This document shows, one piece after another, positions 107 to 61,010 of a stretch of DNA of 64,000 nt. Source of the stretch: Octopus vulgaris (Eukaryota); the NCBI GenBank assembly GCA_951406725.2, contig OX597825.1, forward strand, positions 12,524,001 through 12,588,000, read 5' to 3'. The notes beneath the pieces are model-generated. The model ran no database searches. It was not told the DNA's origin and saw nothing but the letters and a program-made list of their open reading frames with translations. The position numbers and the translations under genes are program-made. Position 1 is the stretch's first letter. The number at the start of each line of letters is the position of its first letter.

Positions 107-415
107 ATCGTAAACGGATTTAATTTAATTTAATTAAATTCGATTACGTAAAAACGTCGAAACTATGCATAGTACAAAGTTGAAGGGGATAAATGTTTTT
201 ATTTCTCCTTTAGTTCCAGAATTACTACTATTTTGCGGTTTGAGTTTAGCTGCCCTTTCAAGTGAGTTGAACGGCCTGCCAGGGTCATTCCTTAATACTA
301 TTGTTGAATATATTATATAGTCTGTGACTATTTCTACTTTCTCACTTGACCGCTGGTTGCAGAAACTTTTTCTTGAATTTTTCTTGAATTTTCTTTGCTA
401 CCCTTATATTGATTA
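107..415 (+). mobile_element. Penelope pLTR/retrozyme-like repeat fragment carrying the 3' half of a hammerhead (family H1)
   Basis: 200-412 matches 17310-17523; 107-145 is the reverse complement of 16878-16916; GAAA at 159-162, with palindrome ACTATGCATAGT (162-173), then A and CAAAGT. Confidence 0.7.
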
Positions 416-760: not shown

Positions 761-2430
761 TATGTATGTATGCATGCATGTATGTGTGTTTGCGTGCATG
801 TATGTATGTATGCATGTGTGTGTATGTATGTATGTATGTATGTATGTATGTATGTATGTATGTATGTATATGTGTGTGTTCTGTTCTGTTGTCACTTGAA
901 TTCTCTCTCTGAGTGAAGAAGCCGGTTTCTATGAAAGATACGAAGCTCTATCGTTGGAATGTACATAACGAAAACAGTGTTCCATTTTAATCTTGAGAAA
1001 TGTGTTGCATAGATTTACTGTTCCACTTCAAAATTGTATTTGTAATCTGCGAGATAATGAGTTGATGTGTTTTATTGACAATCCAAGTTCACCAATTATT
1101 ATCAGTATAAATTTAAATTTGTAAGGTGTATATTGATGCATGTATGTTTGTATGTTTGTATGTATGTAAGTGAAAATTATTTCCGGAATTGTATTTTTGT
1201 CTTCCTGCGTTCTTTACTTTTCACGTTTACATACTGAATATACATAGTCTACGGCAAATCACAAACACACATCTCCGAGTCATTCTATTGTTGCCACTCT
1301 TGTAAATTTAGAAAAACGATTTTATCTCCTTAAACAATAATGGCAGGAAACTGCATCAGCATTCTAATTCAAGTGTTCTCTCGTTAATTGCGGTCACTAT
1401 AAGAGAGGTTTCATCGAACAACTAGCATGCCTTCATTAAGCTAGAAATTGACAAGTCTCCACAAACGATAATTTACTCAAGAACCCTACAACGGCCATTA
1501 AATAGTAAAACAGTAAGGGCCTAGAAACTAATCCCATTTTATATATACATACGTCATTATAGATTGACATTTATTTCCTCTCCGATTGAGAGGTTCAGCG
1601 GGAAACTTGAAAGCCTTCTCTTTCCTCACCTCATAAAACTTATTCTACTAAATTATTTCCGAAGCCATTAAAGGCAATCTCTATGGTTCCTTTTATGACT
1701 ACTTGCACATCTATGTATACATCGGTGATAGACATAATCCATCACCCTCTTTAATATCAGCTCATGTTCCCCGCAGAACAGAGAACATCCTCTTTCACGT
1801 AGTCAAACCAGGTTTCCCCTTTTACATTAAACGATATATCTTCATTCAGAACTTCCTAATTCAACAAATCATATGTCTCGTTTTATTTTCCCCCGCAATT
1901 TCAACCCTGCAAATATCATGGCCACTAACACCCATACACTCCCTACTGTTTAAAATAATCTCAGCAATCGATTAATATCGTTTTCTTTCTCACTACTTGC
2001 ATTGCAATATCAATGAAAATAACTTTTTTAAAGAACCCCTGCATTAAATACGCTAACACAAATTTATTGATTTCTATGCAGATAGCATACAGTGACCTAT
2101 GAACACTTTTTATCCAGCTGTTTATTTTCATTTAATTACATGTGTCTTCCGTTCTTTGCAAGTATATACAAATTTAATTATATTTTCTGATAAATTTTGA
2201 CTTCAATTTAATAGAACACAACAATGTAAACCATTGGCAAAAATGCGTAGAGGCGCTTGAACTTGGCAAATTTCGTGGCTGATGTGAATATGGAAAATTC
2301 GATAATAAGAAAAAAGCTTAATATTTCGGTATTAATCATGAGGCACTAATTAACACAGAGAAGAATTGGACTAAAGAAAGACATTTACGAATCAGGAAAT
2401 GTTTTGGGAGGCACCAGTAAGATTAATAAG

Positions 2431-2850
2431 GACTACTTCCTTGAAAATCATATTGCAATAAGTGCTGAGAAAGGACAAAGATTCCGCCAAGACATCGGGA
2501 CCATGGTGGCTAGGTATCAAAACAGGTGGAACCACAAAGGTGATTGCTGACTCTTGCGATGCAAGTTTTTCAGGCAAACCAGCAAAGAGAACGTTCACGT
2601 CTTGGGAAACTGAAACTCCAGTTTGACAGATATATAATTCCTAAGATGTGGAATTTAACATTTTATGTAATATATGTATTAGCCTTTAATTTCAGTATTG
2701 CATTTTGTTACAAAGTGAATTTCTGTTTAACAGAAAACTTGACGTGATAGAAAAATATGTGAGCACATTTCTGAACTCAGTTCTATCAAATTAGTTAAGA
2801 CTAATTTTTTTAAAAAAAAGCAAGACAATTATAAATTTTGTTCGAAAATG
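2431..2850 (+). mobile_element. Chapaev3-like (Transib-related) DNA transposon 3' remnant
   Basis: 2431-2557 reads DYFLENHIAISAEKGQRFRQDIGTMVARYQNRWNHK/VIADSC (one frameshift), resembling the recalled motif DFFPENLGAVSDEHGERFHQDI..MEKRYQGRW...MLADYC; the 3' extent is approximate. Confidence 0.6.
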
Positions 2851-3090
2851 TTGCTCAGCTTTCATATTCAGAGAGTAAGCAGTAGAAAACAAAGCTTGAA
2901 CTAATGGGAGAAAATTGACTGATTTCGTTCTGACATCTGTGAATCAAACTCAACAGAAAGTTTGTTCGTAATTGTTCCTGTGTCTTAATGTAAACAATAG
3001 AATAGAATATGCAAGGATCTCGAATATATATACACGACATTATGGAATATATATTCTCATTACTTATTTGCACCTGCGACTATATAAACA

Positions 3091-3149
<59 letters not shown>

Positions 3150-3153
<4 letters not shown>

Positions 3154-3293
3154 AAGCAATTAAGATTCAAGTGAGTTCTTTGAATTCACATGAATATGGT
3201 ACTTAACTTGGATGCACCAGAAATCTATATGGTGTTAACCATAAGACACAGTGGGGTGATTACAAATAGGATATTGATCCATTCTTGTTGTTT

Positions 3294-3295
<2 letters not shown>
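3150..3295 (-). repeat. Interspersed repeat related to the foldback element at 11776-12035
   Basis: Reverse complement of 3190-3262 matches 11958-12030 (TAACACCATA...TTCTGGTGC...TTAAGTACCATATTCA). Confidence 0.6.
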
Positions 3296-3351
<56 letters not shown>

Positions 3352-3660
3352 GGTGGCCCAAAAGTAGGTTTACAGTTATCATACAGTTGTCAAGCGATGT
3401 TGGGGGGACAAATACACACACAAACACACACACATATATATATGTATATATATATAGGTTATAAGAAGCAATGGTGTCATTGAGACCCAAAGGTGTCCGG
3501 TAATGCTGAATAAGTGCTATAGATAGACCATAGTTAGGTTCCAGGTTCGGTGATTTTGCGAATAAGGGGTTCAACGTTGGTCATATATCAGCGAGTGTAT
3601 CTGAGAAATTGTTTGCGGAATGAGATAAAAAAAACTAAGGCTCTGTATATACTAGAGCAT

Positions 3661-3733
<73 letters not shown>

Positions 3734-3865
3734 TATATATAGTCGGTTAACTAAGGATCACAATTAACTTTCACGTGGATATATCAAACTTAATTCGTAA
3801 ATAAAACGTATACATCATCTGAAATAAATTTTAGTCTTTTCACGTCTTTTTACGTAATAGTAAAT

Positions 3866-4175
3866 TACGTTCTGAGTTCAAATTCCGCCGAGGTCGACTT
3901 TTCCTTTCATCCTTTCGGGGTCGATTAAATAAGTACCAGTTACACACTGGGGTCGATATAATCGACTTAATCCGTTTGTCTGTCCTTGTTGTCCTGTCTG
4001 TGTTTTGCCCCTTGTGGGTAGTAAAAAAATAGGTATTTCTTCTGGTCTTTCTCGTTCTGTGTTCATAATTTTCCTGACGTCCAGTTGATTTTCATTCATT
4101 TATGTACTATGTACTACTGGAGCATGATGTCGATGTAATCGACCATTCTCCTCACCAAAACTTTCCTGGTCTGCA
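3866..4175 (+). mobile_element. SINE family A, 5'-truncated, with decayed second unit
   Basis: B-box-like GAGTTCAAATTCC and shared core CCTTTCATCCTTTCGGGGTCGATTAAATAAGTACCAG; matches 9043-9630. Confidence 0.85.
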
Positions 4176-4917
4176 ATGTCAGAATTATATCTATGAAACA
4201 AAAAGTACAAAACGGCCATTTATTGACAGATATAGTACAACCGCAGACAAAATGCTTTGCGCTGCCTAGATTTTTACATTTCAAAACTAAATATTATCTG
4301 GTTGGATTTTTTCTTTCACTCTTCCGGTATCGATAAAATATTTAGTGAAATACCAAGATCAATGATATCAGTTCACAATCTTCCACTTAAATTGTTGCTA
4401 TTCTAAACATAAATCAATATAAATATAACTAAACTTTTGATTTGATATCATAAAAACACTATAGATTCAGAGTTATGAGCTTACTAAACTAAATAGATTT
4501 TATAGTATTTATCAAATTTATGTATTTGAGTTTAATTTTCCCACGACAGGTTTGTTGTCCTAAATTCTCACATTAATAAATTATACAAATGAACCTAAAT
4601 TCTTCTAGTATATTTATCAATTTGTTATAAATTATTGTTAAACTCTACACAGAGTACAACCTATACGGCGCTTAAATTGCTATTCCAGGGTCGATGATAT
4701 ATTAAGCGAATGTAAGTGTGTATTTGATTGTCTTATATGTTTTTCAATAATTCTATTCATTGAAAACATTATTGGCTATATTGAACAGAAATTATCTATA
4801 TTATAGTGCCAATTGTTAAAGCTAGATAAAAGCCGGTGTTATGTGGCTATGAGAACTCTATTATTGCACAACTTCAAATCCTGCTGTCTTATATTTAATA
4901 TTAACATGTCTAATATT

Positions 4918-5333
4918 TATTTCTTTATTGCCTATGGAGGGTTCAAACATGGAGGGTTCAAACAAGGACAGACAAAGGGATTAAGTCGATTATAACGACC
5001 CAAGTGCGTAACTGGTACTTATTTAATCGACTCCGAAAGGATGAAAAGCAAAGTCGACCTCGGCGGAATTTGAACTCAGAACGTAGCGGCAGACGAAATA
5101 CCTATTTTTTACTACCCACAAGGGGCTACACACAGAGGGGACAAACAGAGACAGACATACGGCTTAAGTTGATTATATCAACACCAGTGCGTAACTGGTA
5201 CTTATTTAATCGACTCCGAAAGGATGAAAGGCAAAGTCGATTCGGCGGAATTTGAACTCAGAACGTAACGGCAGATGAAATACGGTTGCGCATTTCGCCC
5301 GGCGTGCTAACATTTCTGCCAGCTCGCCGCCTT
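4918..5333 (-). mobile_element. SINE family A, tandem dimer
   Basis: Reverse complement of the 9043 element: tRNA-like head GGCGGCGAGCTGGCAGAA at 5333, two body units. Confidence 0.9.
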
Positions 5334-6224: not shown

Positions 6225-6532
6225 TGTTGCTTGTTCCCTCTCGAGCCACGCCTGGCTCATAAGGGCCGGTTTCCCGGCTTCCTTGGCGTATAGGATTCCC
6301 CACCTGGACGGAACGCCGGTCCATCACAGGTGAGCTGAAAGATACAGGAGGAAAGAGTGAGAGAAAGTTGTGGCGAAAGAGTCAGCAGAAAGTTCGCCAT
6401 TACCTTCTGCCGGAGCCGCGTGGAGCTTAGATTTTTCTCTCATAAACACACACAGCGCCCGGTCTGAGATTCGAACCCGCGATCCTTCGACCGCGAGTCC
6501 GCTGCTCTAACCACTAGGCCATGCGCCTCTAC
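6225..6532 (-). mobile_element. SINE family C, tail type 3
   Basis: tRNA head TGGCCTAGTGG...GGTTCGAATC; TSD CATATCAAGTA/CATATTAAGTA (6212-6222, 6532-6542). Confidence 0.9.
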
Positions 6533-6631
6533 ATATTAAGTAGAGTTTCCATTTATAAAAAAGGGAAAAAACAAAAAAACATCCGTTTTGATACTGTTCA
6601 TACAATTTCAGTAGCTACATTCCGTGAGAGA

Positions 6632-6940
6632 GGAGGCACATGGCCTAGTGATTAGAGCAGCGGAATGGCGGCCGAGGGATCACGGGTTCGAATCTCAGAC
6701 CGGCCGATGTGTATGTTTATGAGCGAAACACCTAAGCTCCACTCGGCTCCGGCAGAAGGTAATGGCGAACTTCTGCCGACTCTTTCACCACAACTTTCTC
6801 TCACTCTTTCCTCCTGCATCTTGAAGCTCACCTTCGACGGACCGGTGTCCTATCCAGGTGGGGAACCTATACGCCAAGGAAACCGGGTAACCGGCCCTTA
6901 TGAGCTAGGCGTGGCTCGAGAAGGAACAAACAACAACAAA
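6632..6940 (+). mobile_element. SINE family C, tail type 3
   Basis: A box TGGCCTAGTGA, B box GGTTCGAATC, (CAA)n tail; TSD ACATTCCGTGA (6617-6627, 6940-6950). Confidence 0.9.
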
Positions 6941-9042
6941 CATTCCGTGATTATCTGTGATGCTCACTATGTTTCTCAAATATTTCGTGTCTTACCACAC
7001 GAAAGGCACGCAATATATCATGTATATTTCTTGACTTGATCATTCATTTTTACACTGTTTGCCTATCCAGTTCACAGTATTTTTAAAGCTATCCAGCATA
7101 TATTTCGCGCTTTTTACATAACGCCTGTTTATGTAGGAATCCTATTTTGTTATATTCCTGAGAAAATGGCGAAACGATCTGTTGTCTTTTGTTTAAGCAT
7201 CAGATTATGTACAACGAAACGGAGCCTGAATGTTGTCAGATGACGTACGAGAAATAACAGCCATATTAGCTTCAGTTTCAAACTTTAGAGTCCAACAAAA
7301 ACAAAGAACACAGACAATGTAATCTGAGATAACGCAGATGACATGTTTACAGCTAGAATCCATTCTAACTAAACATCTACTCAGTTTTTAAGATAAGACT
7401 GAACAAAAACACAACATATAATAGCGTTATCTTTTCCACCACAAAATTGCCTTTATCTTCTCTTTGAAGTAGTGACTAGCTTCTCTCTAATATTTATAAG
7501 GCACAGTCTTAGCTATGTGATAAACAAGATCAATTTATGAATAAGTCTTTTCAGGTTCAAACCCACTGCAAATCCAGCAAGTGTATTTAATTATGGCTTC
7601 GAAGATTTGTGGTTAGAGTATTCAGCTCATAGGTTCAGTTCATAAAAATGTTGGAGCAGTGTTCTGGGCACTTCATTTCATAGCTCTGTGGTCCAATCGT
7701 GTATTAAATATATAATTTCTAAGAGTAAATCTATTAGGAGAGTGGATAAGGAAGTTTTGAAGTGTAGAATGGCAAAATGAACGGCGGCCACCAAAAACAT
7801 AACGACCCCCACAGTGGCATATTATTGTTAGTTGTTTTTTTTCCCCATTATCATTATTGTCGTTGTTGATCGCTCTTTACAAAGCGGAGATACTGGATCA
7901 AAATGAATAGTTACTTTATCATTGATGAAGTGCACGCAAACCCTTATTTAAAACAGGAACATGAAGAAACAAAGAATCTCATTGGATTCGACAAAGAGTT
8001 TGAATGTTTGAATTTTTGAAGACCCCTAACTTTGATATTTACAAATCCATTCAACGTGACAATCTCCAGTAAAATACCAAATAAAGCTCAATCTCAAACA
8101 AGAAACAAAATAATCCATAGGAAGCTCACTTAAAGTACTCTAAACTACATATCTGACACCACACATGCTTATATGTTTTGGCTATACCATTCAACAATAA
8201 GTAATCACAACAATAACAACATCAACAGCAACAAAGTCGTTTGTATAAAAATATAATTACAAATCGTTTCTTGAGTGTTTGTAGTTTATGATTTGTTACG
8301 TTAATTTCTGTGAATCCTAAGAGATCTTTTATATTGCTTAATGAAAATAAATGCGCATTTCTGCAAATAATTGGCCTTATCTTAAACATTTCCCGTTCCG
8401 TTATGACGACTGAAGAGGTCTTAATTTTTTTGTTGTTGATTATTTTCGTTCATTATTTTTGTGCTTTTGTTTCATATAACATGAAATCAATGCCTCGCTA
8501 TTTCTCTCCCATCACTCAATTCAAAGTTGTTTGATTAGTTTCTTGTATTTACCCTTATCAATCACTTTGTTTCATTATTTTTTTCTTAATTACATTCATT
8601 CATTTATTTTTTGTAGTGTATATTCCTTTCAAATTACATTTTTCTTTTCTATTACACAACGCTATTAATTCATTATTTTCTAATTTGATAAGCATCTCAA
8701 GAGATTCCATTATTTTATGTCGGTTTTACCGAGCTATTGTAATGGAAAGAGGGGTATCTGTAATAGCATAAGTGGAGAATATTCTGCTATGCCTTGGTTG
8801 CCGTGATATAATTGGCGATGTAGATGATGTGAAGATAGATTCGATACAAGCAGTATTACAAATGATTAAGATACAAGCCGTTGTTTTATTGTTATTGCTT
8901 TGCAAGGTCATGCATGAGTGATTAGACCTGTAATCAAAGAGGTTCTAAGTCTTGATCATCCTTTATTATTTTAAGACGATATATTGTTGAAAGGAATGGT
9001 AAGTGTTATTTGTAGCAGGTTGAGCAAGTGAGGAGGGACAAA

Positions 9043-9630
9043 AGGCGGCGAGCTGGCAGAATCGTTAGCACGCCGGGCGAAATGCTTAGCGGTATTTCGT
9101 CTGCCGTTACGTTCTGAGTTCAAATTCCGCCGAGGTCGACTTTGCCTTACATCCTTTCGGGGCTCGATTAAATAAGTACCAGTTACGCACTTAATCCGTT
9201 TGTCTCTCCTTGTTTGTCCTCTCTGTGTGTAGCCCCTTGTGGGTAGTAAAGAAATAGGTATTTCGTCTGCCGTTACGTTCTGAGTTCAAATTCCGTCAAG
9301 GTCGACTTTGCCTTACATCCTTTCGGGGGTCGATTAAATAAGTACCAGTTACGCACTGGGGTCGATGTAATCGACTTAATACCTATGTCTGTCCTTGTTT
9401 GTCCCCCCTGTGTGTAGCCCCTTGTGGGTAGTAATGAAATAGAAATAGGTATTCCGTCTGCCGCTAAGTTTTGAGTTCAAATTCCGCCGAGGTCGACTTT
9501 GACTTTCATCTTTTCGGGGTCGATAAATTAAGTATCACTTACGCACTGGGGTCGATGTAATCGACTTAATCCGTTTGTCTGTCCTTGTTTGTCCCCACTA
9601 TGTTTAGCCCCTTGTGGGCAATAAAGAAAT
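9043..9630 (+). mobile_element. SINE family A, tandem trimer
   Basis: Full head plus three ~165-190 bp body units; TSD TGAGGAGGGACAAA/TGAGAAGGGACAAA (9029-9042, 9635-9648). Confidence 0.9.
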
Positions 9631-10414
9631 GATATGAGAAGGGACAAATAGGAACACAAATTGTATGGTCATATTTTTTGGCTGTTGCCTGGGCGATGAT
9701 GTTGACGTTGGCCATAGCGATGTTTTTCCTTGCAGAAGTGGTAATGAAATCTTAGCTCGCTAACAGAGATGATGGAAGAATTATCGTTGTGGCTGGTTTT
9801 CATCCTGCCTGAGCTAGATATGCTTTATATGTTGTTGTCTTTTATTGCTATTGATGCAGTTCTTGTCGATGTCACTGATAACGAAATAATGGCAGTAATA
9901 TTGCTGGTGTTAAATGACGTACAGGAGATGTTGGTGGTGGTAGGAGCGGCGATGCAGGCGGTGGGGGTTATGATGGTTTTCGTTATGGTTTGTCTGGAAA
10001 CGACATGGAAATAAATTGTAATCATTATCTAGCATCGGTGATTCTTGCGCACATAAATCGACGTGGTTCACCAATCGCCAAACGATCTACAGCTATTTGT
10101 AATTATAAAACGGAAATACAAGTGATTCGATCATATTGTAATTCTTTCCACAAACAGAAAATAAAATTTGGAAAAATAAAAAAAAATATTTCGTAACAGT
10201 AAAAGCGTCAAAGAGTTAAATAAAGTCTAAATTTACAGAGAAAAGACATCGATGGAAACGCAGGAATTTTTACAAAGAAGAAGCGAATATGTATTACAAT
10301 GATAAACAAGGCCATCAGTGTTGAAGTATGAACGATTGTAATACGTTGCAAGGCGATGTTATTTAGTTGATATCTGATTTAATATTTTATTATGTTTAGA
10401 AAAAATAATCGCTA

Positions 10415-16877: not shown

Positions 16878-17527
16878 AATCGAACTTAATTAAATTAAAT
16901 TAAATCCGTTTACGATTGGCTTGTTTCATCAGCAAAGTCACCAAAAGAAAAGGAGAACATATACGCACGAGGCGACACCACTGAAGCCCCGAGTGTATAT
17001 ATCCTAATTTTTCGAAATCCAACATAACCGCGCCAACTACTCAGCAGCAAATATAAACTGCTGATACAATTTCAGAATTATTCAAAAATTATTAATTTAT
17101 CAATATAGGGTAGCAAAAAAATCCAAGAAAATTCAAGAAAAATTTTCTGCAACCAGTGGTCAAGTGAGAAAATAGAAATAGTCACAGACAATATAATATA
17201 TTCAAAAGTATTAAGGAATGACCCTTACAGGTCGTTCAACTCACTTGAAAAGAGCAGCCAAAACTCAAACCGCAAAAATAGTAGTAATTCTGAAAGCTAA
17301 AGGAGTTATTATTTCTCCTTTAGCTTTCAGAATTACTACTATTTTTGCGGTTTGAGTTTTGGCTGCTCTTTTCAAGTGAGTTGAACGACCTGTAAGGGTC
17401 ATTCCTTAATACTTTTGAATATATTATATTGTCTGTGACTATTTCTATTTTCTCACTTGACCGCTGGTTGCAGAAAATGTTTCTTGAATTTTTCTTGGAT
17501 TTTTTTTGCTACCCTATATTGATAAAT
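16878..17527 (-). mobile_element. Penelope pLTR/retrozyme-like element (family H1) with a ~211-bp inverted arm
   Basis: Near-perfect palindrome 17095-17305/17315-17527; the minus strand continues to ACTTTG-CTGATGA (16938-16926) and a long stem II. Confidence 0.75.
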
Positions 17528-21014: not shown

Positions 21015-21364
21015 AACAAATATCCATCAAATGTAAATAATATAAATCATGGAACTATTGTTCACACGTTCTGTGTATGATGCATGTAGAGCGAAGAAAA
21101 GTTTAAAGCATTTTGGAAGGACATTTTAATAACGAATACGAAGAGAAGAATATATCGAATGATCAGGTGATAGTAAAGTGATCGATGGACAAGTTTACTT
21201 CTACCATCTCGTCATTAAGTCGACACCTCTGAACGTCATGGGTTGCAGTTTCAGTTTATGTATGTTGACAAACGAATAAAATTTCACTCGTAAGGATTTG
21301 AATTCGAAGCGCACAGAGCAAAAGCAAGGTTACTTTGCCCTTATGTTTCCAGTCCTCTGCTAAT

Positions 21365-21783
21365 ACCTATTTCTATACTACCCACAAGGGGATAAACACG
21401 GAGAGGACAAACAAGGACAGACAAACGGATTAAGTCGATTATATCAACCCCAGTGCGTAACTCGTACTTATTTAATCGATCCCGAAAGGATGAAAGGCAA
21501 AGTCGACCTCGGCGGAATTTAAACTCAGAACGTAGCAGCAGATGAAATACCTATTTCTTTACTACCCACAAGGAGCTACATATTGAAGGGACAAACTAGG
21601 ACAGACAACGGATTAAGTCGATTATATAGACCCCAGTGCGTAACTGGTACTTATTTAATCGACCCCGAAAAGATGAAAGGCAAAGTCGACCTCGGCGGAA
21701 TTTGAACTCAGAACGTAGCGGCAGACGAAATACCGCAAAGCATTTCGCCCTGCGTGCTAACGTTTCTGCCAGCTCGCCGCCTT
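21365..21783 (-). mobile_element. SINE family A, tandem dimer
   Basis: Two body units plus head, same junction as the 9043 copy. Confidence 0.9.
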
Positions 21784-29803: not shown

Positions 29804-30279
29804 AATAATAGTTATCGCCATACTAATATGGCATTCTTATAAAAATAAGAAAAAAGCTGTCCGCTTATTAGCTCCATGTGGCCATCGCCTTAAGTTAGCT
29901 ATTTGATACACAAACTGTATCCATATAACCTTCGAACAAGGGAGGTCAGTCGCTCCACACTACTTGACCGGCAGGTACAGACGCGTTTCGGGGTATTGCC
30001 CCTTTTCAATGCAGCGTAGCCAGCCAGTAGGTGTCGCTTCCGACAATCTCTGTTCGATGGTTTTATTTACCTAGTTTCGGTGGAATACATTCACTTGTTT
30101 TCAATAATAGAAATATTAAAATAACTAAGTCTCTCTAAAAGAGAACAGCGGCAGCGTTCCCGGAAAATAATAGTTATCTATTTTTATAAGAATGCCATAT
30201 TAGTATGGCGATAACTATTATTTTCCGGGAACGCTGCCGCTGTTCTCTTTTAGAGAGACTTAGTTATTTTAATATTTCT
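29804..30279 (-). mobile_element. Penelope pLTR/retrozyme-like element (family H4): 362-nt monomer plus inverted arm
   Basis: AATAATAGTTATC recurs at 29804 and 30166; 30179-30279 is the reverse complement of 30109-30165 joined to 29804-29847. Confidence 0.75.
29976..30013 (-). ncRNA. Minimal type I hammerhead, U3-A8 core variant
   Basis: UGCA-UUGAAAA-GGGG-CAAUA-CCCC-GAAA-CGCG-UC-UGUA; palindromic stem III ACGCGU, GUC triplet. Confidence 0.75.
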
Positions 30280-33200
30280 GATATTTCATTTGTATCAATT
30301 CCTTGGTGTTTGCCCTTCGTTTGATTCCCTAAAGGGTCTTATAAGTAAATGTGGTACGCAAATATCTAAGTGTTTGATTCATTACATACTGAGAAAAGAA
30401 AACGTTAGAAATACTGTATTTATTTATGTATTAGCTGCTCTAATTTATACTTGAACTTAAATGAAAATTACTCGATGCCACTTATACACGGCGCATAGGT
30501 AAAACTATCAAGGGAAAAACATTGGAAATGAGTTTTAACACTAAGTTTAACAAAGTCTATATGAAGACGAAGAACAATTTCAATACAGCTTTAACGAAAT
30601 AAAGTAACAACAGACGTATTCTTTTTAAATTTTGATGAAGAAAGCTCCGCAATAAATATTCATTTGTTATTGTCACTTTTCATCAACATCTTTGATTCTG
30701 TCTCATTGCTGTTGAAGCCCAGTTTGGGGAATTACGTCGCCGTAATTATTTCATTCATTTCTTGACAGAGGAAACAGTTGTGATTCTCATTATATTTGCA
30801 AAATCTCAAACAGAGAAGATTGGCTTTTTCTGAATTTGTTCAGCATGTCTGTGTGTACGGAAATATGAAAGCAAAATATGAAAGGAATCTTTCAATTCTT
30901 AGCAATAATTCTAACTTATACGGAAGCACAAAGATTTGGAGAGATGAGGATTAGTCAATGCCATTGAGCTCATTATCTACTGGTACATATTTTATCAACT
31001 CTCAAAGTGGATCTTGTTGGAAATTGAACTCAGTTCATGAAGAGCCGTGTGAAATATGCAAGGTAGATTGTCTACCCCTGGCAGTATTAAGTTGCTAGCT
31101 CCATAAGTGTAATAACAACAACAACAGCAGTAGAAGCAACTAACGAAGACGAGGAGGTGTAGGAGGTGAAAGCAGGAGTGGAGATTGATAAGGAGACGAT
31201 GAAGAGGAAGATGAAGAGGAAAAATACTCTTCGGGCCAAATGACAAAGGCATGAATACAAACAATGTTTAAATCAAGTTAAGATCTTTGCGATTAAGATT
31301 CTCCTGTAAGAACTGTAATAATTTTGTATGTGTAAAAGAAAAATTAGTTGATCTAACAATATTATAGAAATAGAAATCGATTTCTCCCGAATGAAAATTT
31401 ATGCGGTAAAAAAAATCAAAGATTCGTTGGACAAGACGCACTATGTCAAAATAAAAGACAGCATGAACATGGTTGGAACCCATTTGAGAACAGGTCTAGA
31501 CTCGATCTGGAGTTAAAGAAAAACAATAACAGTTTGTTGGCTATGCAGATAGATGTTTATGACGAAAATAGCGTGATCACATCAGACGGAACATGTAAAG
31601 CAAGTCAAACTCGAGTCAACTTGAAATAAAAACGTATGTTATACAACACATCAAACCTGAACAGCAAAATATATAAGACATATGCTGAAGTCTGGCTTTT
31701 ATTAGACACTCTATTGAGCTGATTACTGTACGAAGCACATTTAATGCGATCACTAGAAGCGGTGTTCTCTGAAAATGTTAATTACCAACAAAAAAGGACT
31801 AGTTCTTATAGAAATAAAATGGCGATTTCAAATGAACGATGTACGAAAGAACAAGAGGAACAAGCGTTTCAAGCATACTTTACAGCAATATTATTTCTAA
31901 CACACACTAGCGTCATAAACTTAACAAACGAGATCAAAAGGAGAATAAATGGAGTTGTAAGACGAAAACTAGACAGAAATGCATTAGTAAATATACGCTG
32001 GTTCGTTGTTAAAGTAGAAATAAAAAAATATGTAGGAATCGCGAATACAACAGCTCATATAATGAAGAGTATGTTACAAAAGAATTGAACACTCGCGAAA
32101 AAAGTATATTCCCTCACAAACCAAAGCAAAGTTGCGCAAAAAGACGTGAAAATGTATGAATCCTGTGTCCCTCATAACAATGAAAAATAACGCAAGAGAA
32201 CAGACTACACAGGGAAGTGACAAGTTATTGTCACACATGTATATGAACCGGCGGGAAATGAACAAGAAATCACAAAGCGAGTGATGGTCAAACAAGGATC
32301 TATAAATTTAATAAAAATATATCGCAGCGAAATAATTAGTGATCAATAAGGAAAAGCTAAGAGAAACTAAAGAATCGTTGGAGAACTGTTCGAATTAAAA
32401 TCAATGAACTTGTACGTATAGAAACCATTCCGCAAAAGAATAATAAACGTATAGGAAATAACAGCTAAAGTAGACTTTGTTATCAAAGAAATATATCCGA
32501 GGAAAACGCACTTGAACATTAAAAGGGTAGATGAATAAGTATATACATTAGCTATAACAACTTTGAGAGAAACTCCGTTCTATAGCGTATCACATTTCAT
32601 ACGTCATGGAAAACAGAACAAAATAGCACGAAAGATTTATAACTGACCAGCGAAAAATGTTTGAGACTATTATGCAGCCGATATCAAGTAGCGCAATTAA
32701 GATAGAATTTATTCATATACTAGTGGAGGTCAAGACTTTTAGAGAATGTTAATGAAAAATAAACGTGTCTTGTAAATGATTATGGCCCGCCTATATTAAA
32801 ATCGATTATTTGAAAGTAAATCTAAGCATGTATAAAGCAGATAAAAAGAATCAAACAAACAATGTATTTAAAACAGAGGACACAATCTAGCTATACTGTG
32901 AGAGGTTATGGATCTAATATATATTTATATAAGAGAGCTACACGCTCTGTGAAAACATGAGTAGAATATTAATTAACGTAATTAATAACTAAATGGCAAT
33001 TAGCATTACAACGTAAATGTGGAGAAATTGGCAGTGTTTTCAACTGTCTCTAGTTTCAGGCTTAAGTAAGCTATTAATAAACAAAATGCTTTTCGCACGG
33101 TTTTTAATGAACTGTTACCGAAAGTAGGTACAGTTTACCTGTACAGAAAACGCAATATTAATTACCTGCACACACGTAAAAGCCCATGCGGGAAAAGTGC

Positions 33201-42745: not shown

Positions 42746-42799
42746 AAATATAGAAGTAAAGATAATTATATGAAAATAAGCAGTAAAGTTGATTAGAGC

Positions 42800-43347
42800 G
42801 TCCCAGTAGGTATCTGGTACTTAATTTATCGACGCCGAAAGGATGAAAGTCAAAGTCGACCTCGGCGGAGTTGGAACTCAGAACCTAGCGGTGAACGAAA
42901 TAGCTATTTCTTTACTACCCACAAGGGGCTAAAAACGTCTTCCGCTACGTTCTGAGGTCGACTTTGTCTTTCATCCTTTTGGGGTCGATTAAATAAGTAC
43001 CAGTTACGCACTGGGGTCGATATAATCGACTTAATCCGTTTGTACGTCCTTGTTTGTTCTCTCTGTGTTTAGCTCCTTGTGGGTTGGAAAGAAATAGGTA
43101 TTTCGTCTGTCTTGTATTTTGAGTTTAAATTCCGCCGAGGTCGACTTTGTCTTTCATCCTTTCGGGGTCGATTAAATAAGTACCAGTTACGCACTGGGGT
43201 CGATATAATCGACTTAATCCGTTTGTCTCTCCTTGTTTGTCATCTCTGTGTTTAGCCCCTTGTGGGTAGGAAAGAAATAGGTATTTCGTCTGTCTTTACA
43301 TTCTGAGTTGAAATTCCGCCGAGGTCGACTTCGTTTTTCATCCTTTT
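42800..43347. mobile_element. SINE family A multimer with inverted left segment
   Basis: 42800-42935 is in minus orientation and abuts plus-oriented tandem units 42936-43347. Confidence 0.85.
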
Positions 43348-45153: not shown

Positions 45154-45540
45154 TATTTCTTTATTGACCTCAAGGGGCTAAACATAGAGGGGACAAACAA
45201 GCACAGACAAAGGGATTAAGTCGATTACATCGACCCAGTGCGTAACTGGTACTTTATTTATCGACCACGAAAGGATGAAAGGCAAAGCCTCGGCGGAATT
45301 TGAACTCAGAGCGTAACGGCAGACGAAATACCGCTAAGCATTACGCCCGGCGTGCTAACGTTTCTGCCAGCTAATCGTTTCTGCTACGGGCACAAGGCCT
45401 GAAATATAATGGGGAAGGACAAATCGATGTAATCGAATCCAGTTCCTAAATTATCGGCGGCGAAAGGATAAAAAGTATTTCATCCTTTCGCTGGAATTTG
45501 AAATCAGATTTTAAAGACAGACGAAATGGCTTTAAGCGGA
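45154..45540 (-). mobile_element. SINE family A monomer plus an older adjacent copy
   Basis: 45154-45372 is well conserved; 45378-45540 is decayed and has the alternative tail. Confidence 0.8.
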
Positions 45541-54302: not shown

Positions 54303-54752
54303 TTGATAATTTTTTACTGTTATGCCTTTTTTACGTATGCTAAGCCACTGATATTATTATAAACAATATCCTCATATAAATTTACATAATTTTTATTTAC
54401 TTCGATCACGTATTTTAGAATTTGCTGCGGGATTAAAATCAGGCATCGTACACATTAGTGAGATGAACAATCTCTTTAAACTCAAAGTTGAAAATCACGG
54501 TGATACGGGTATGTGTAGCATTTTCAATATTCGATTACTTCGTCATTGGTACGGGATTTTAGGATTTTTATTCATTTACCCGCTTTCATATCTGTGTTTA
54601 ACTGAAAATTTGTAATTTGATCATTTGAATGCTATATTTAGCAAACCGGTACTAATAGTTCGTTTCCTTAATTATTAATTGATAATTATTTTGTTTAACG
54701 TTACGGTTTTTTTATGCATGATATTATTATAAAGAATAATATCCTCATATAT
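54303..54752 (+). repeat. ~370-nt unit with terminal direct repeat
   Basis: TGATATTATTATAAA...AATATCCTCATATA at 54349 and 54719. Confidence 0.55.
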
Positions 54753-54772
54753 ATATATATATATATAAATAT

Positions 54773-54952
54773 TGTGAGGTATACTTGCCATCTCAATATG
54801 GCTGACCACTAAGTGTGGGTGTTACTGTAGCTTGTAGCCCCAGGAGAACATCGTCTCCAACTGGCTTTAGACGATGTTCTCCTGGGGCTATAAGCCACAG
54901 TAATACCCACCCTTGTTGGTCAGCCATATTGAGATGGCAAGTATACCTCACA
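54773..54952. repeat. 180-bp hairpin (84-bp arms, 12-nt loop)
   Basis: TGTGAGGTATACTTGCCATCTCAATATGGCTGACC...TCGTCT and its reverse complement, with few mismatches. Confidence 0.9.
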
Positions 54953-55004
54953 TTGTCGTGCAGTTACTGTTTATACCTCGTTCAGAGATTTATAATATAA
55001 ATAT

Positions 55005-55425
55005 TATTATTTCTAAATCTCTCTAAAGGAGACTACGGCAGCAGTACTAGGTATTAATAGTTACTGCCAAGCTAACATGGCAGTCCAGAAAAATAACACG
55101 AAAGCTGCCGTTGATTAGCTCCAAGAGGCCATCGCGCTTCGCGTCTAGCTAGCTATGTGACACACAATCATCGAAAAGGGGAGGTCAGCAGCTTCCCCAT
55201 GTTGGGTCAGACACCCGCAAACTAGTTTCAGGGTATTTACCCTTTATCAATATGGAGTAGTCGAACCCAGCAGGCGTTGCTGTTGATTGGTTTTTCGAAG
55301 GTTGTAATGGACACCGGTTTGCGTGCCACATAGCTAGCTAGAGGTGATTGCCACTTGAAGCTAATCAACGGCAGCATTCGTCCTACTTTTCTGGACTGCC
55401 ATATTAGCTTGGCGATAACTATTAA
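55005..55425 (-). mobile_element. Diverged family H4 element with inverted arm
   Basis: Colinear similarity to 30109-30178 then 29804-30030; 55320-55425 inverts 55054-55165. Confidence 0.7.
55215..55255 (-). ncRNA. Minimal type I hammerhead, U3-A8 core variant
   Basis: CCAUA-UUGAUAA-AGGGUA-AA-UACCCU-GAAA-CUAG-UU-UGCGG. Confidence 0.65.
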
Positions 55426-55493
55426 CACACGCACACACATACACACACACAAAACACACAAACACATATAAACACACACACACACACACACAT

Positions 55494-56192: not shown

Positions 56193-56238
56193 AACGCAAC
56201 GTTTCGGCTGATATAACGTCCAGCCTTCATCAGGTGCC
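56193..56238 (-). ncRNA. Minimal type I hammerhead, canonical core (family H3)
   Basis: GGCAC-CUGAUGA-A-GGCUG-GACGUUAUAU-CAGCC-GAAA-CG-UU-GCGUU within repeat 56085-56357. Confidence 0.7.
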
Positions 56239-56291
56239 TTGGAGAAATTTCGAACATGGATTCTCATTTCTAAGCTATTTTTCCGATGTTG

Positions 56292-56494: not shown

Positions 56495-56770
56495 TGAGAA
56501 TGATCCCTGGCTTACCATCCCTGCAAGAAGTGCAAAAGATTGTCTTAACTGGTACATCACACGTATTGCGAAGAGCATTGTCGATGTGAGAACTGTTGCT
56601 GCTCATGTATTTTAATTTAACTTTAAAAAAATAAAAAATAAATGAACGAACTATTGAGTTTGGTTTAATGGCCTAACATTGTATACTAAGAGTTTCTTTG
56701 CCCTAGGAGTCGGGAAGACGCTCGGCAAGAAATGGAAGCACATTTGAAAGAAGAAGAAAAAAAAATAATA
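56495..56770 (+). mobile_element. 3' end of an R4/Dong-like LINE inserted in (TAA)n
   Basis: MIPGLPSLQEVQKIVLTGTSHVLRRALSM* (QK..LLGT..ILR..L terminal motif), then 3'UTR and A/TAA tail. Confidence 0.75.
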
Positions 56771-56774
56771 ACAG

Positions 56775-56935
56775 CAACAACAACAACAACAACATCGGAA
56801 AAATACCTTAGGAATGAGAACCCAGGTTCGAAATTCCCCCAAGACAATTGATGATGGCTGGAAAGTACATCAGTCTATACGTTGTTAACAACAAACAAGA
56901 TGGGGACAAGCATCCGTCAAATGTAGCTAATGTAC
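56775..56935 (+). mobile_element. Decayed family H3 repeat, inverted relative to 56085-56300
   Basis: AACATCGGAAAAATACCTTAGGAATGAGAACCCAGGTTCGAAATT...TTGATGATGGCTGG. Confidence 0.75.
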
Positions 56936-60314: not shown

Positions 60315-60712
60315 CTTTTCTACTTTAGGCACAAGGCCTGAAATTTTTGGGAAGAGAACCAGTCGATTAGATCGACCTCAGTACGCGACCGGTACTAAAT
60401 TTATCGACCCCAAAAGGATGAAAGGAAAGTCGACCTCGGCGGAATTTGATCTCCAGGAAGGTAAAGACAGACGAAATGCCTATTTCTTTACCACCCACAG
60501 GTGCTAAACATAGAAGGGACAAACACGGACAGACGAAGTGATTAAGTCGATTATATCGACCCCAGTGCGTAACTGGTACTTATTTAATCGACCCTGAAAG
60601 GATGAAAGGCAAAGTCGACCTCGGCGGAATTTGAACTCAGAACGTAGCGGCAGACGAAATACGGCTACGCATTTCGTCCGGCGTGCTAACGTTTTTGCCT
60701 GCTCGCCGCCTT
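60315..60712 (-). mobile_element. SINE family A dimer with alternative terminal tail
   Basis: 19-bp TSD ATAATGCTTGTAAATATAT (60296-60314, 60713-60731). Confidence 0.9.
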
Positions 60713-61010
60713 ATAATGCTTGTAAATATATATCAAGCACACGCTCTGGTGGTGTTTCTCAAAAATTACGATAATCCAAAATTATAAGATAGTGGCTACA
60801 TAAAACGGCTTATTGACATTTATAAATTTAAGGAGGGAAAAATACTTGACGTTATAAATTACGTTATATCATCCGTTCTAATTGCGACGTAGCGGGAATT
60901 TAGAAGTTATTTTTTATCGTTTACCTTCAGATATTTCAGCCCTGATACATAGCACAAGATTCGTTTCAAGGTTACTGAGATACTAAGTTCTTACATTAAA
61001 TTTTCTAACG

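What the first reader, a model, noticed from the sequence alone, without database searches (positions are those of the whole stretch)
55215..55255. Diverged H4 sibling supplies natural covariation for the ribozyme
Relative to 29976, stem II changes from GGGG/CCCC to AGGGUA/UACCCU, stem III from ACGCGU to ACUAGU (still palindromic) and the free position 7 from A to U, while U3, G5, A6, A8, A9 and GAAA are kept. Structure preserved through sequence change is the strongest in-window evidence of selection on the fold.
Basis: seen in the sequence. Interest (0 to 1): 0.7.

Follow-up and report, generated by a model that had tools for sequence, protein, structure and literature searches.

The report
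Decayed hammerhead ribozyme in retrozyme-like repeat
Two related copies of a high-copy, non-coding animal repeat each carry a hammerhead (self-cutting RNA) motif whose stems differ by matched changes, so the fold was likely kept by selection; it is a known kind of element, and this copy is probably a worn-out one.

Summary
The motif is real and lies on the minus strand. It is a type I hammerhead with a U3-A8 core and a palindromic stem III, homologous to the copy at 29960-30030. My descriptor finds 2 hits in the window and 1 in 300 shuffles.

Compensation is real. Of 13 pairs whose register is fixed by the core, 4 changed on both sides and stayed paired, and 2 are broken (simulated P of 4 or more such changes: 0.004-0.018). 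Two sequences give no R-scape-grade covariation.

Contigs from four DNA runs mostly carry C at 55239, which gives a 4-bp stem II with the Schistosoma-type CAAAUA loop. They also carry C17, where the window has U17. This copy is therefore probably decayed.

Both copies sit in a roughly 360-nt non-coding repeat with inverted 5' arms; at 30 kb the unit is circularly permuted. That is the anatomy of animal non-LTR retrozymes and Penelope terminal repeats. U3-A8 cores, palindromic stems III and cleavage as dimers are all published. No RNA, cleavage or tandem array was shown here. Verdict: a new member of a known kind.

The parts
55200..55272 (-). Type I hammerhead motif, copy c55, with its extended helix I
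55244..55250 (-). Core box UUGAUAA (U3...A8 variant pair, U7)
55230..55243 (-). Helix II, 4 bp (A10.1-U11.1 plus three G-C), with a 6-nt loop 2 reading UAAAUA here. Most laid contig depth has C at 55239, giving CAAAUA
55221..55229 (-). GAA box and palindromic helix III ACUAGU: 1 bp plus a tetraloop as a monomer, 6 bp if paired in trans
55219..55220 (-). Predicted cleavage site after position 17. U here; C in 91-100% of laid depth and in c30
55213..55259 (-). Proximal helix I (55251-55256 with 55219-55214; one A.C mismatch) and internal loop 1 (UAC at 55259-55257, U at 55213). The loop is identical in c30
54992..55290 (-). Sense part of the repeat unit: short linker, hammerhead, segment S2 (to about 55051) and segment S3 (to about 54992)
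   Evidence: loose ends at 54993-54994
55291..55428 (+). Inverted (fold-back) copy of S2. 95 of 110 identical to the sense S2 over 55319-55428; followed by (CA)n(TA)n
29960..30030 (-). Sister hammerhead c30: core UUGAAAA, GGGG-CAAUA-CCCC, ACGCGU, C17; one C.C mismatch in helix I
29804..30178 (-). c30 unit, circularly permuted relative to c55 (S3, linker, hammerhead, S2). 363 nt between two copies of the same short word
30179..30285 (+). Inverted 5' arm of c30 (end of S2 plus S3); arms 97-100% complementary

Best explanation
The stretch is a minus-strand type I hammerhead motif (U3-A8 core, Schistosoma-type loops, palindromic stem III) inside one likely decayed copy of a high-copy, roughly 360-nt non-coding repeat that likely moves as a non-autonomous Penelope-dependent retroelement (non-LTR retrozyme type). 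Shown: the anatomy, the homology of the two copies (64-68% identity), the matched stem changes, the permuted order at 30 kb, the inverted arms and the multicopy status. Inferred from published families: master copies are transcribed as multimers; two hammerheads pair through the palindromic stem III, or loop 1-loop 2 docking props up a monomer; cleavage after GUC frees unit-length RNA that may be circularised; a Penelope reverse transcriptase/endonuclease copies it to new sites, leaving permuted, truncated copies with fold-back arms. The matched changes would have been selected in the master lineages of two subfamilies. This dispersed copy would be drifting neutrally and likely cuts poorly or not at all.
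For: Motif far above chance. 4 of 13 core-fixed pairs compensated, plus 3 of 8 distal pairs. All 11 conserved core letters and all 4 loop-1 letters are identical, against 64-68% identity in the hammerhead and downstream segment and 57% upstream. Loop 1 (U with UAC) and loop 2 (CAAAUA in most laid depth) match the Schistosoma U1...U6A7C8 and CAAAUA contact residues (PMC2632901 passages). 1846-4204 contigs laid per run in 4 of 4 runs from 4 coded organisms. 6 of the 7 listed differences inside 55200-55272 move toward a better hammerhead than the window copy. Permuted 363-nt unit, 42% GC, with inverted arms. No Pfam family above its cut-off in 245 reading frames. Published parallels: 170-400-nt retrozymes, and axolotl HHR_Amex1 with 1 bp plus a palindromic tetraloop working as a dimer (PMC7229834); inverted 5'-truncated copies and microsatellite bias in Penelope-like elements (PMC8557442); retrozymes as Penelope derivatives with many solo monomers (preprint 10.64898/2026.07.22.740005).
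Against: No tandem array and only two copies in the window. No target-site duplication in the flanks tested. No transcript or cleavage data, and no partner ORF seen. Only 40 of 119 variant rows were shown, depth is not copy number, and linkage between variants is unknown. At 55217 the window's mismatch letter is the majority in 3 of 4 runs; at 55206 the listed letter would break a pair unless its partner also differs. The column-shuffle control is not significant. Predicted monomer folds do not form the active core (proximal helix I pair probability 0.0 in c55, about 0.2 in c30). The 2026 preprint saw cleavage in only 1 of 9 retrozyme dimers tested.
Confidence: 0.6

Rival explanations
1. Both copies are 5'-truncated 3' ends (pseudo-LTRs) of two autonomous Penelope-like families. 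The permuted order at 30 kb is a partial tandem of truncated copies, not a free retrozyme unit. The ribozyme works the same way but processes the autonomous element's RNA.
For: Laid depth is higher over the 3' segments than over the hammerhead and upstream linker, and many contigs stop near 54993-54994 (depth is a weak measure). Most hammerheads of Penelope-like elements occur as solo truncated motifs, some as opposite-strand pairs, and a U3-A8 variant is described in Schistosoma Cercyon elements (PMC4209133). Partial tandems and inverted copies are typical.
Against: The ribozyme has canonical sizes (helix I 6 bp, helix II 4 bp, no extra base after A9) and tertiary loops, unlike the minimal Penelope type. 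The minimal type occurs in this window as a separate family at 56233. No RT or GIY-YIG match in the window.
Confidence: 0.25
2. The matched changes are partly a DNA-level by-product. Template switching within short inverted repeats and palindromes copies one arm onto the other, so compensation need not reflect selection on an RNA fold.
For: Both insertions show fold-back copying. At 55176 and 55293 the window has a U-A pair where the laid contigs have G and C, next to the fold-back junction. The centre of a 6-nt palindrome is a plausible substrate (inference).
Against: Unpaired core and loop letters are conserved far more than the flanks, which arm-copying does not explain. G-U pairs are used, and compensation occurs in four separate helices.
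Confidence: 0.1
3. The copy at 55.2 kb is itself an active ribozyme used by the host, for example inside an intron or long RNA.
For: The core is intact and U17 is an allowed H base (own knowledge). The fold z-score is -3.6.
Against: It differs from most laid depth at the cleavage base, at the first base of loop 2 (closing the C:A opposition that the Schistosoma structure uses) and in helix I. It has no tandem partner. Its inverted arms have diverged (95 of 110 identical), which suggests an old, drifting insertion.
Confidence: 0.05

Closest known systems
Metazoan non-LTR retrozymes (Cervera and de la Pena 2020, PMC7229834; read parts 1-4 of 6, abstract to discussion; supplement not readable)
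   Same: Non-coding unit of 170-400 nt, GC below 45-50%, canonical type I hammerhead. Axolotl HHR_Amex1 has the same 1-bp helix III with a palindromic tetraloop and tertiary loops, and needs dimers.
   Different: Those are defined by tandem arrays and circular RNAs; neither was seen here. The main text mentions no U3-A8 core or inverted arms.
Hammerheads of Penelope-like elements (Cervera and de la Pena 2014, PMC4209133; read parts 1-2 of 4 and part 1 of supplement 2). Lunse, Weinberg and Breaker 2016/17 seen only as a reference and through a review passage (PMC6765202)
   Same: Palindromic short helix III, dimer cleavage, U3-A8 variant (about 1,300 hits in Schistosoma mansoni), dispersed solo copies, high variability with compensations.
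   Different: The minimal type has a long helix II, a short helix I, an extra base after A9 and a conserved G10.1-C11.1. Here the sizes are canonical, and c55 has A10.1-U11.1.
Schistosoma mansoni Sm-alpha full-length hammerhead (PMC2632901 and PMC6155905, passages)
   Same: Internal loop 1 with a first U and ...UAC, docking on a CAAAUA loop 2.
   Different: Core pair U3-A8 here. Loop 1 is predicted as 1x3 rather than 4x4. c30 has a 5-nt loop 2.
Natural U3-A8 core variants (Perreault et al. 2011, PMC3088659; passages)
   Same: C3-G8 covaries to U3-A8 in several natural hammerheads and is reported active in vitro; palindromic stems III allow dimers.
   Different: No difference in mechanism. This family's sequence was not found there (text passages only).

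Membership tests
Type I hammerhead ribozyme | Conserved core with a 3-8 pair, GAA and A15.1-U16.1, H17 | tested here: met
   U3-A8 is a published variant
Type I hammerhead ribozyme | Helices I, II and III around the core, open end in helix I | tested here: met
   one mismatch in helix I of each copy; helix III is 1 bp as a monomer
Type I hammerhead ribozyme | Loop 1-loop 2 contact residues | tested here: inconclusive
   Loop 1 kept in both copies. Loop 2 is CAAUA in c30 and CAAAUA in most laid depth, but UAAAUA in the window copy
Type I hammerhead ribozyme | Match to an Rfam hammerhead model | tested here: not met
   No hammerhead match at E up to 10 in 55140-55340 or 29900-30100; none among the 150 of 234 rows shown. 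This lowers membership in a curated Rfam family, not the claim that it works like a hammerhead
Type I hammerhead ribozyme | Site-specific self-cleavage | not testable with these tools
   needs an assay
Non-LTR retrozyme | Non-coding unit of 150-450 nt, low GC, one type I hammerhead | tested here: met
   363 nt, 42% GC; no Pfam family above cut-off
Non-LTR retrozyme | Head-to-tail tandem copies, each with a hammerhead | tested here: inconclusive
   None in the window; the permuted order at c30 implies a tandem or circular source; no genome held
Non-LTR retrozyme | High copy number in the genome | tested here: met
   1846-4204 contigs laid per run in 4 of 4 runs. These counts include the neighbouring repeat; listed variant rows in the hammerhead rest on up to 61 contigs
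Non-LTR retrozyme | Linear and circular unit-length RNA | not testable with these tools
   only DNA or unlabelled runs were laid
Penelope-like element pLTR | Adjacent RT plus GIY-YIG ORF | tested here: not met
   No match in 245 frames of 60 codons or more in the window; truncated copies would also lack it
Penelope-like element pLTR | Inverted 5'-truncated copy or partial tandem at the insertion; microsatellite context | tested here: met
   Inverted arms at both copies; microsatellite context for c55 only; compare
Penelope-like element pLTR | Minimal hammerhead (extra base after A9, long helix II, short helix I) | tested here: not met

The most novel reading that the evidence does not exclude
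The palindromic stem III is a self-recognition barcode. Subfamilies of this retrozyme (ACUAGU versus ACGCGU) can only complete their hammerheads with their own kind, so sister families sharing one genome and one Penelope helper are isolated at the RNA-processing step. The family would also be a high-copy lineage that has fixed a U3-A8 core in a fully tertiary-stabilised type I hammerhead.
Probability: 0.12. Interest if true: 0.55.

Novelty: new member of a known kind. Interest (0 to 1): 0.25.

Why it matters
Modest. It adds a retrozyme-like family, with at least two subfamilies, to an animal lineage; from a recalled SINE resemblance the host may be a cephalopod, which was not tested. It combines canonical tertiary loops, a U3-A8 core and a dimer-type stem III. 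I found no description of this family in ten library searches, but the Lunse paper and key supplements were not readable and may cover it. The natural pair of palindromes is a ready-made homodimer versus heterodimer test of pairing in trans. It is also a caution: two genomic copies mix selected subfamily changes with private decay.

Tried and rejected
- Rfam: no hammerhead match.
- No whole genome is held, so no family alignment or R-scape test was possible.
- Pattern scans for relatives found 0 in viral contigs, 0 in genome contigs and 0 in the first metagenome scan. The second gave 4 loci, rejected as chance because only 21-32 bases match.
- A covariance model from the two copies found no third copy in the window (next best E = 1).
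- Sequencing runs: no RNA holder listed. This is no evidence either way.
- Pfam on 245 frames: three weak matches below cut-off, none related to retroelements.
- No target-site duplication in the flanks tested.
- A plus-strand reading was rejected: the core exists only on the minus strand.
- A 6-bp stem II was rejected.
- A MITE with terminal inverted repeats was rejected: the inverted arm covers different segments in the two copies.
- The Lunse paper is not held. The supplement of PMC7229834 was unreadable, one supplement file of PMC4209133 was not searched, and bioRxiv supplements are closed. Any of these may list this family.
- Look-ups of earlier findings by place and by sequence were empty.

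Full report
**Observation.** The window is AT-rich, microsatellite-rich animal-type DNA with no recognisable protein family. A motif scan finds type I hammerhead geometry at two places, both on the minus strand: core start 55250 (c55) and 30009 (c30). A descriptor that needs the core, a 4-bp stem II, a palindromic stem III and at least 5 of 6 stem I pairs hits these two sites, and only once in 300 shuffled windows; it was written after seeing the motif. Rfam reports no hammerhead at either site.

**Anatomy.** Both copies parse as helix I of 6 bp, an internal loop (UAC opposite U), a distal helix of 8 bp or more, helix II of 4 bp, and helix III of one pair closed by a palindromic tetraloop. That matches the 'canonical' metazoan type I sizes, not the minimal Penelope type (PMC4209133). 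In the Schistosoma structure the first U and last C of internal loop 1 dock on a CAAAUA loop 2, and the C:A opposition at the base of loop 2 is proposed to help free the last A (PMC2632901 passages). Both copies keep the loop 1 letters. The U3-A8 pair is a published natural variant (PMC3088659; PMC4209133).

**Covariation.** Among 13 pairs whose register the core fixes, 6 are unchanged, 4 change on both sides and still pair, 1 changes on one side and still pairs, and 2 are broken, one in each copy. Among 8 distal pairs, aligned by me from the loop outward across a 2-nt indel, 3 are doubles, 1 is single and 1 is broken. Placing the 12 observed substitutions at random gives 4 or more doubles with P 0.004-0.018, depending on transition bias and starting copy. 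Sliding the partners drops pairing from 92% to 28-47%. The column-shuffle control is not significant (47-65 of 500), as expected with two sequences, and the structure was drawn from these same sequences. So compensation is likely real, but this is not a formal covariation result.

**What the rest of the family says.** I laid contigs from 4 of the 24 listed runs (four coded organisms, four studies) on 54700-55440; 1846-4204 contigs fit per run. Only 40 of 119 variant rows were shown, and 7 fall in 55200-55272 (letters on the minus strand):
- 55220, U17 to C: share 0.91-1.00.
- 55239, U to C: 0.81-0.97; reopens the loop to CAAAUA.
- 55252, U-G to C-G: 0.68-0.89.
- 55202, A.C to G-C: 0.89-1.00.
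- 55214, G-U to A-U: 0.33-0.96.
- 55217, C.A to U-A: 1.00 in one run, 0.10 in three.
- 55206: 0.39-1.00; would break a pair unless its partner, not shown, also differs.

Six of the seven move toward a better hammerhead. No row is shown for positions 3, 7, 8, 10.1, 11.1 or stem III. That fits these being subfamily traits, but hidden rows leave it unproven. One bridging contig piece shows the ACUAGU stem III together with C11.1 and C17 (table 5c), so ACUAGU is not private to this copy.

**The element.** Homology between the copies runs well beyond the ribozyme (182 of 248 identical). In c55 the order is linker, hammerhead, S2, S3. In c30 it is S3, linker, hammerhead, S2, with 363 nt between two copies of the same short word. 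Each insertion has an inverted arm at its 5' side, made of different segments: S2 in c55 (95 of 110 identical) and the end of S2 plus S3 in c30 (97-100%). c55 and an adjoining repeat lie between (TA)n and (CA)n(TA)n tracts. Partial tandems, inverted 5'-truncated copies and microsatellite targets are marks of Penelope-like insertion (PMC8557442 passages). Units of 170-400 nt with canonical type I hammerheads are the non-LTR retrozymes (PMC7229834). A 2026 preprint derives them from Penelope terminal repeats and finds many solo monomers (10.64898/2026.07.22.740005, parts 1-3 of 5 read). No tandem array, target-site duplication, partner ORF or third copy was found in the window.

**Mechanism.** As monomers, forming the one-pair helix III costs about 6 kcal/mol in both copies, and the predicted ensembles do not form the core junction. 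The 6-nt palindromes pair in trans at -4.8 (c55) and -7.5 (c30) kcal/mol; the mixed duplex is +1.6. This fits cleavage as tandem homodimers, as published for newt and axolotl motifs and for Penelope hammerheads. Transcription, cleavage, circularisation and mobilisation are all inferred from those families; none was shown here.

**Verdict.** The fold was likely selected in the master lineages; the copy at 55.2 kb is likely a decayed solo insertion. Every component is published, though I did not find this family or this exact combination in ten searches, and some key sources were unreadable. New member of a known kind; interest 0.25.

Noticed in passing
window 56195-56245 (-), with sisters near 56849 (+) and 20970 (+): A separate family with a minimal Penelope-type hammerhead (CUGAUGA, extra A, G10.1-C11.1, palindromic ACGU). 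The two sisters look decayed. All lie beside (AAT)n or (AAC)n tracts.
   Followed up: partly
window 54773-54993: A second, very high-depth repeat with an 84-nt fold-back (93% complementary) directly abuts the c55 unit. It has a 20 of 25 match to the S2 hairpin and may be a distant relative.
   Followed up: partly
window 56500-56589 (+): A 29-residue frame ending in a stop resembles, from memory, the C-terminus of an R4/Dong-type non-LTR element; it follows an (AAT)n tract.
   Followed up: no
window 4910-5333, 9042-9645, 21352-21783, 42786-43346, 45154-45372, 60361-60713: A SINE-like family whose 3' part of about 185 nt is tandemly repeated; no hammerhead core in it. It resembles octopus SINEs from memory; not tested.
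   Followed up: no
window 55176 and 55293: The window has a U-A pair where the laid contigs have G and C, in a long-range extension of helix I next to the fold-back junction. The intrinsic hairpin may have primed the inversion.
   Followed up: partly
window 195-365, 17144-17476, 6225-6935: Other inverted-repeat insertions typical of fold-back or MITE-like elements.
   Followed up: no
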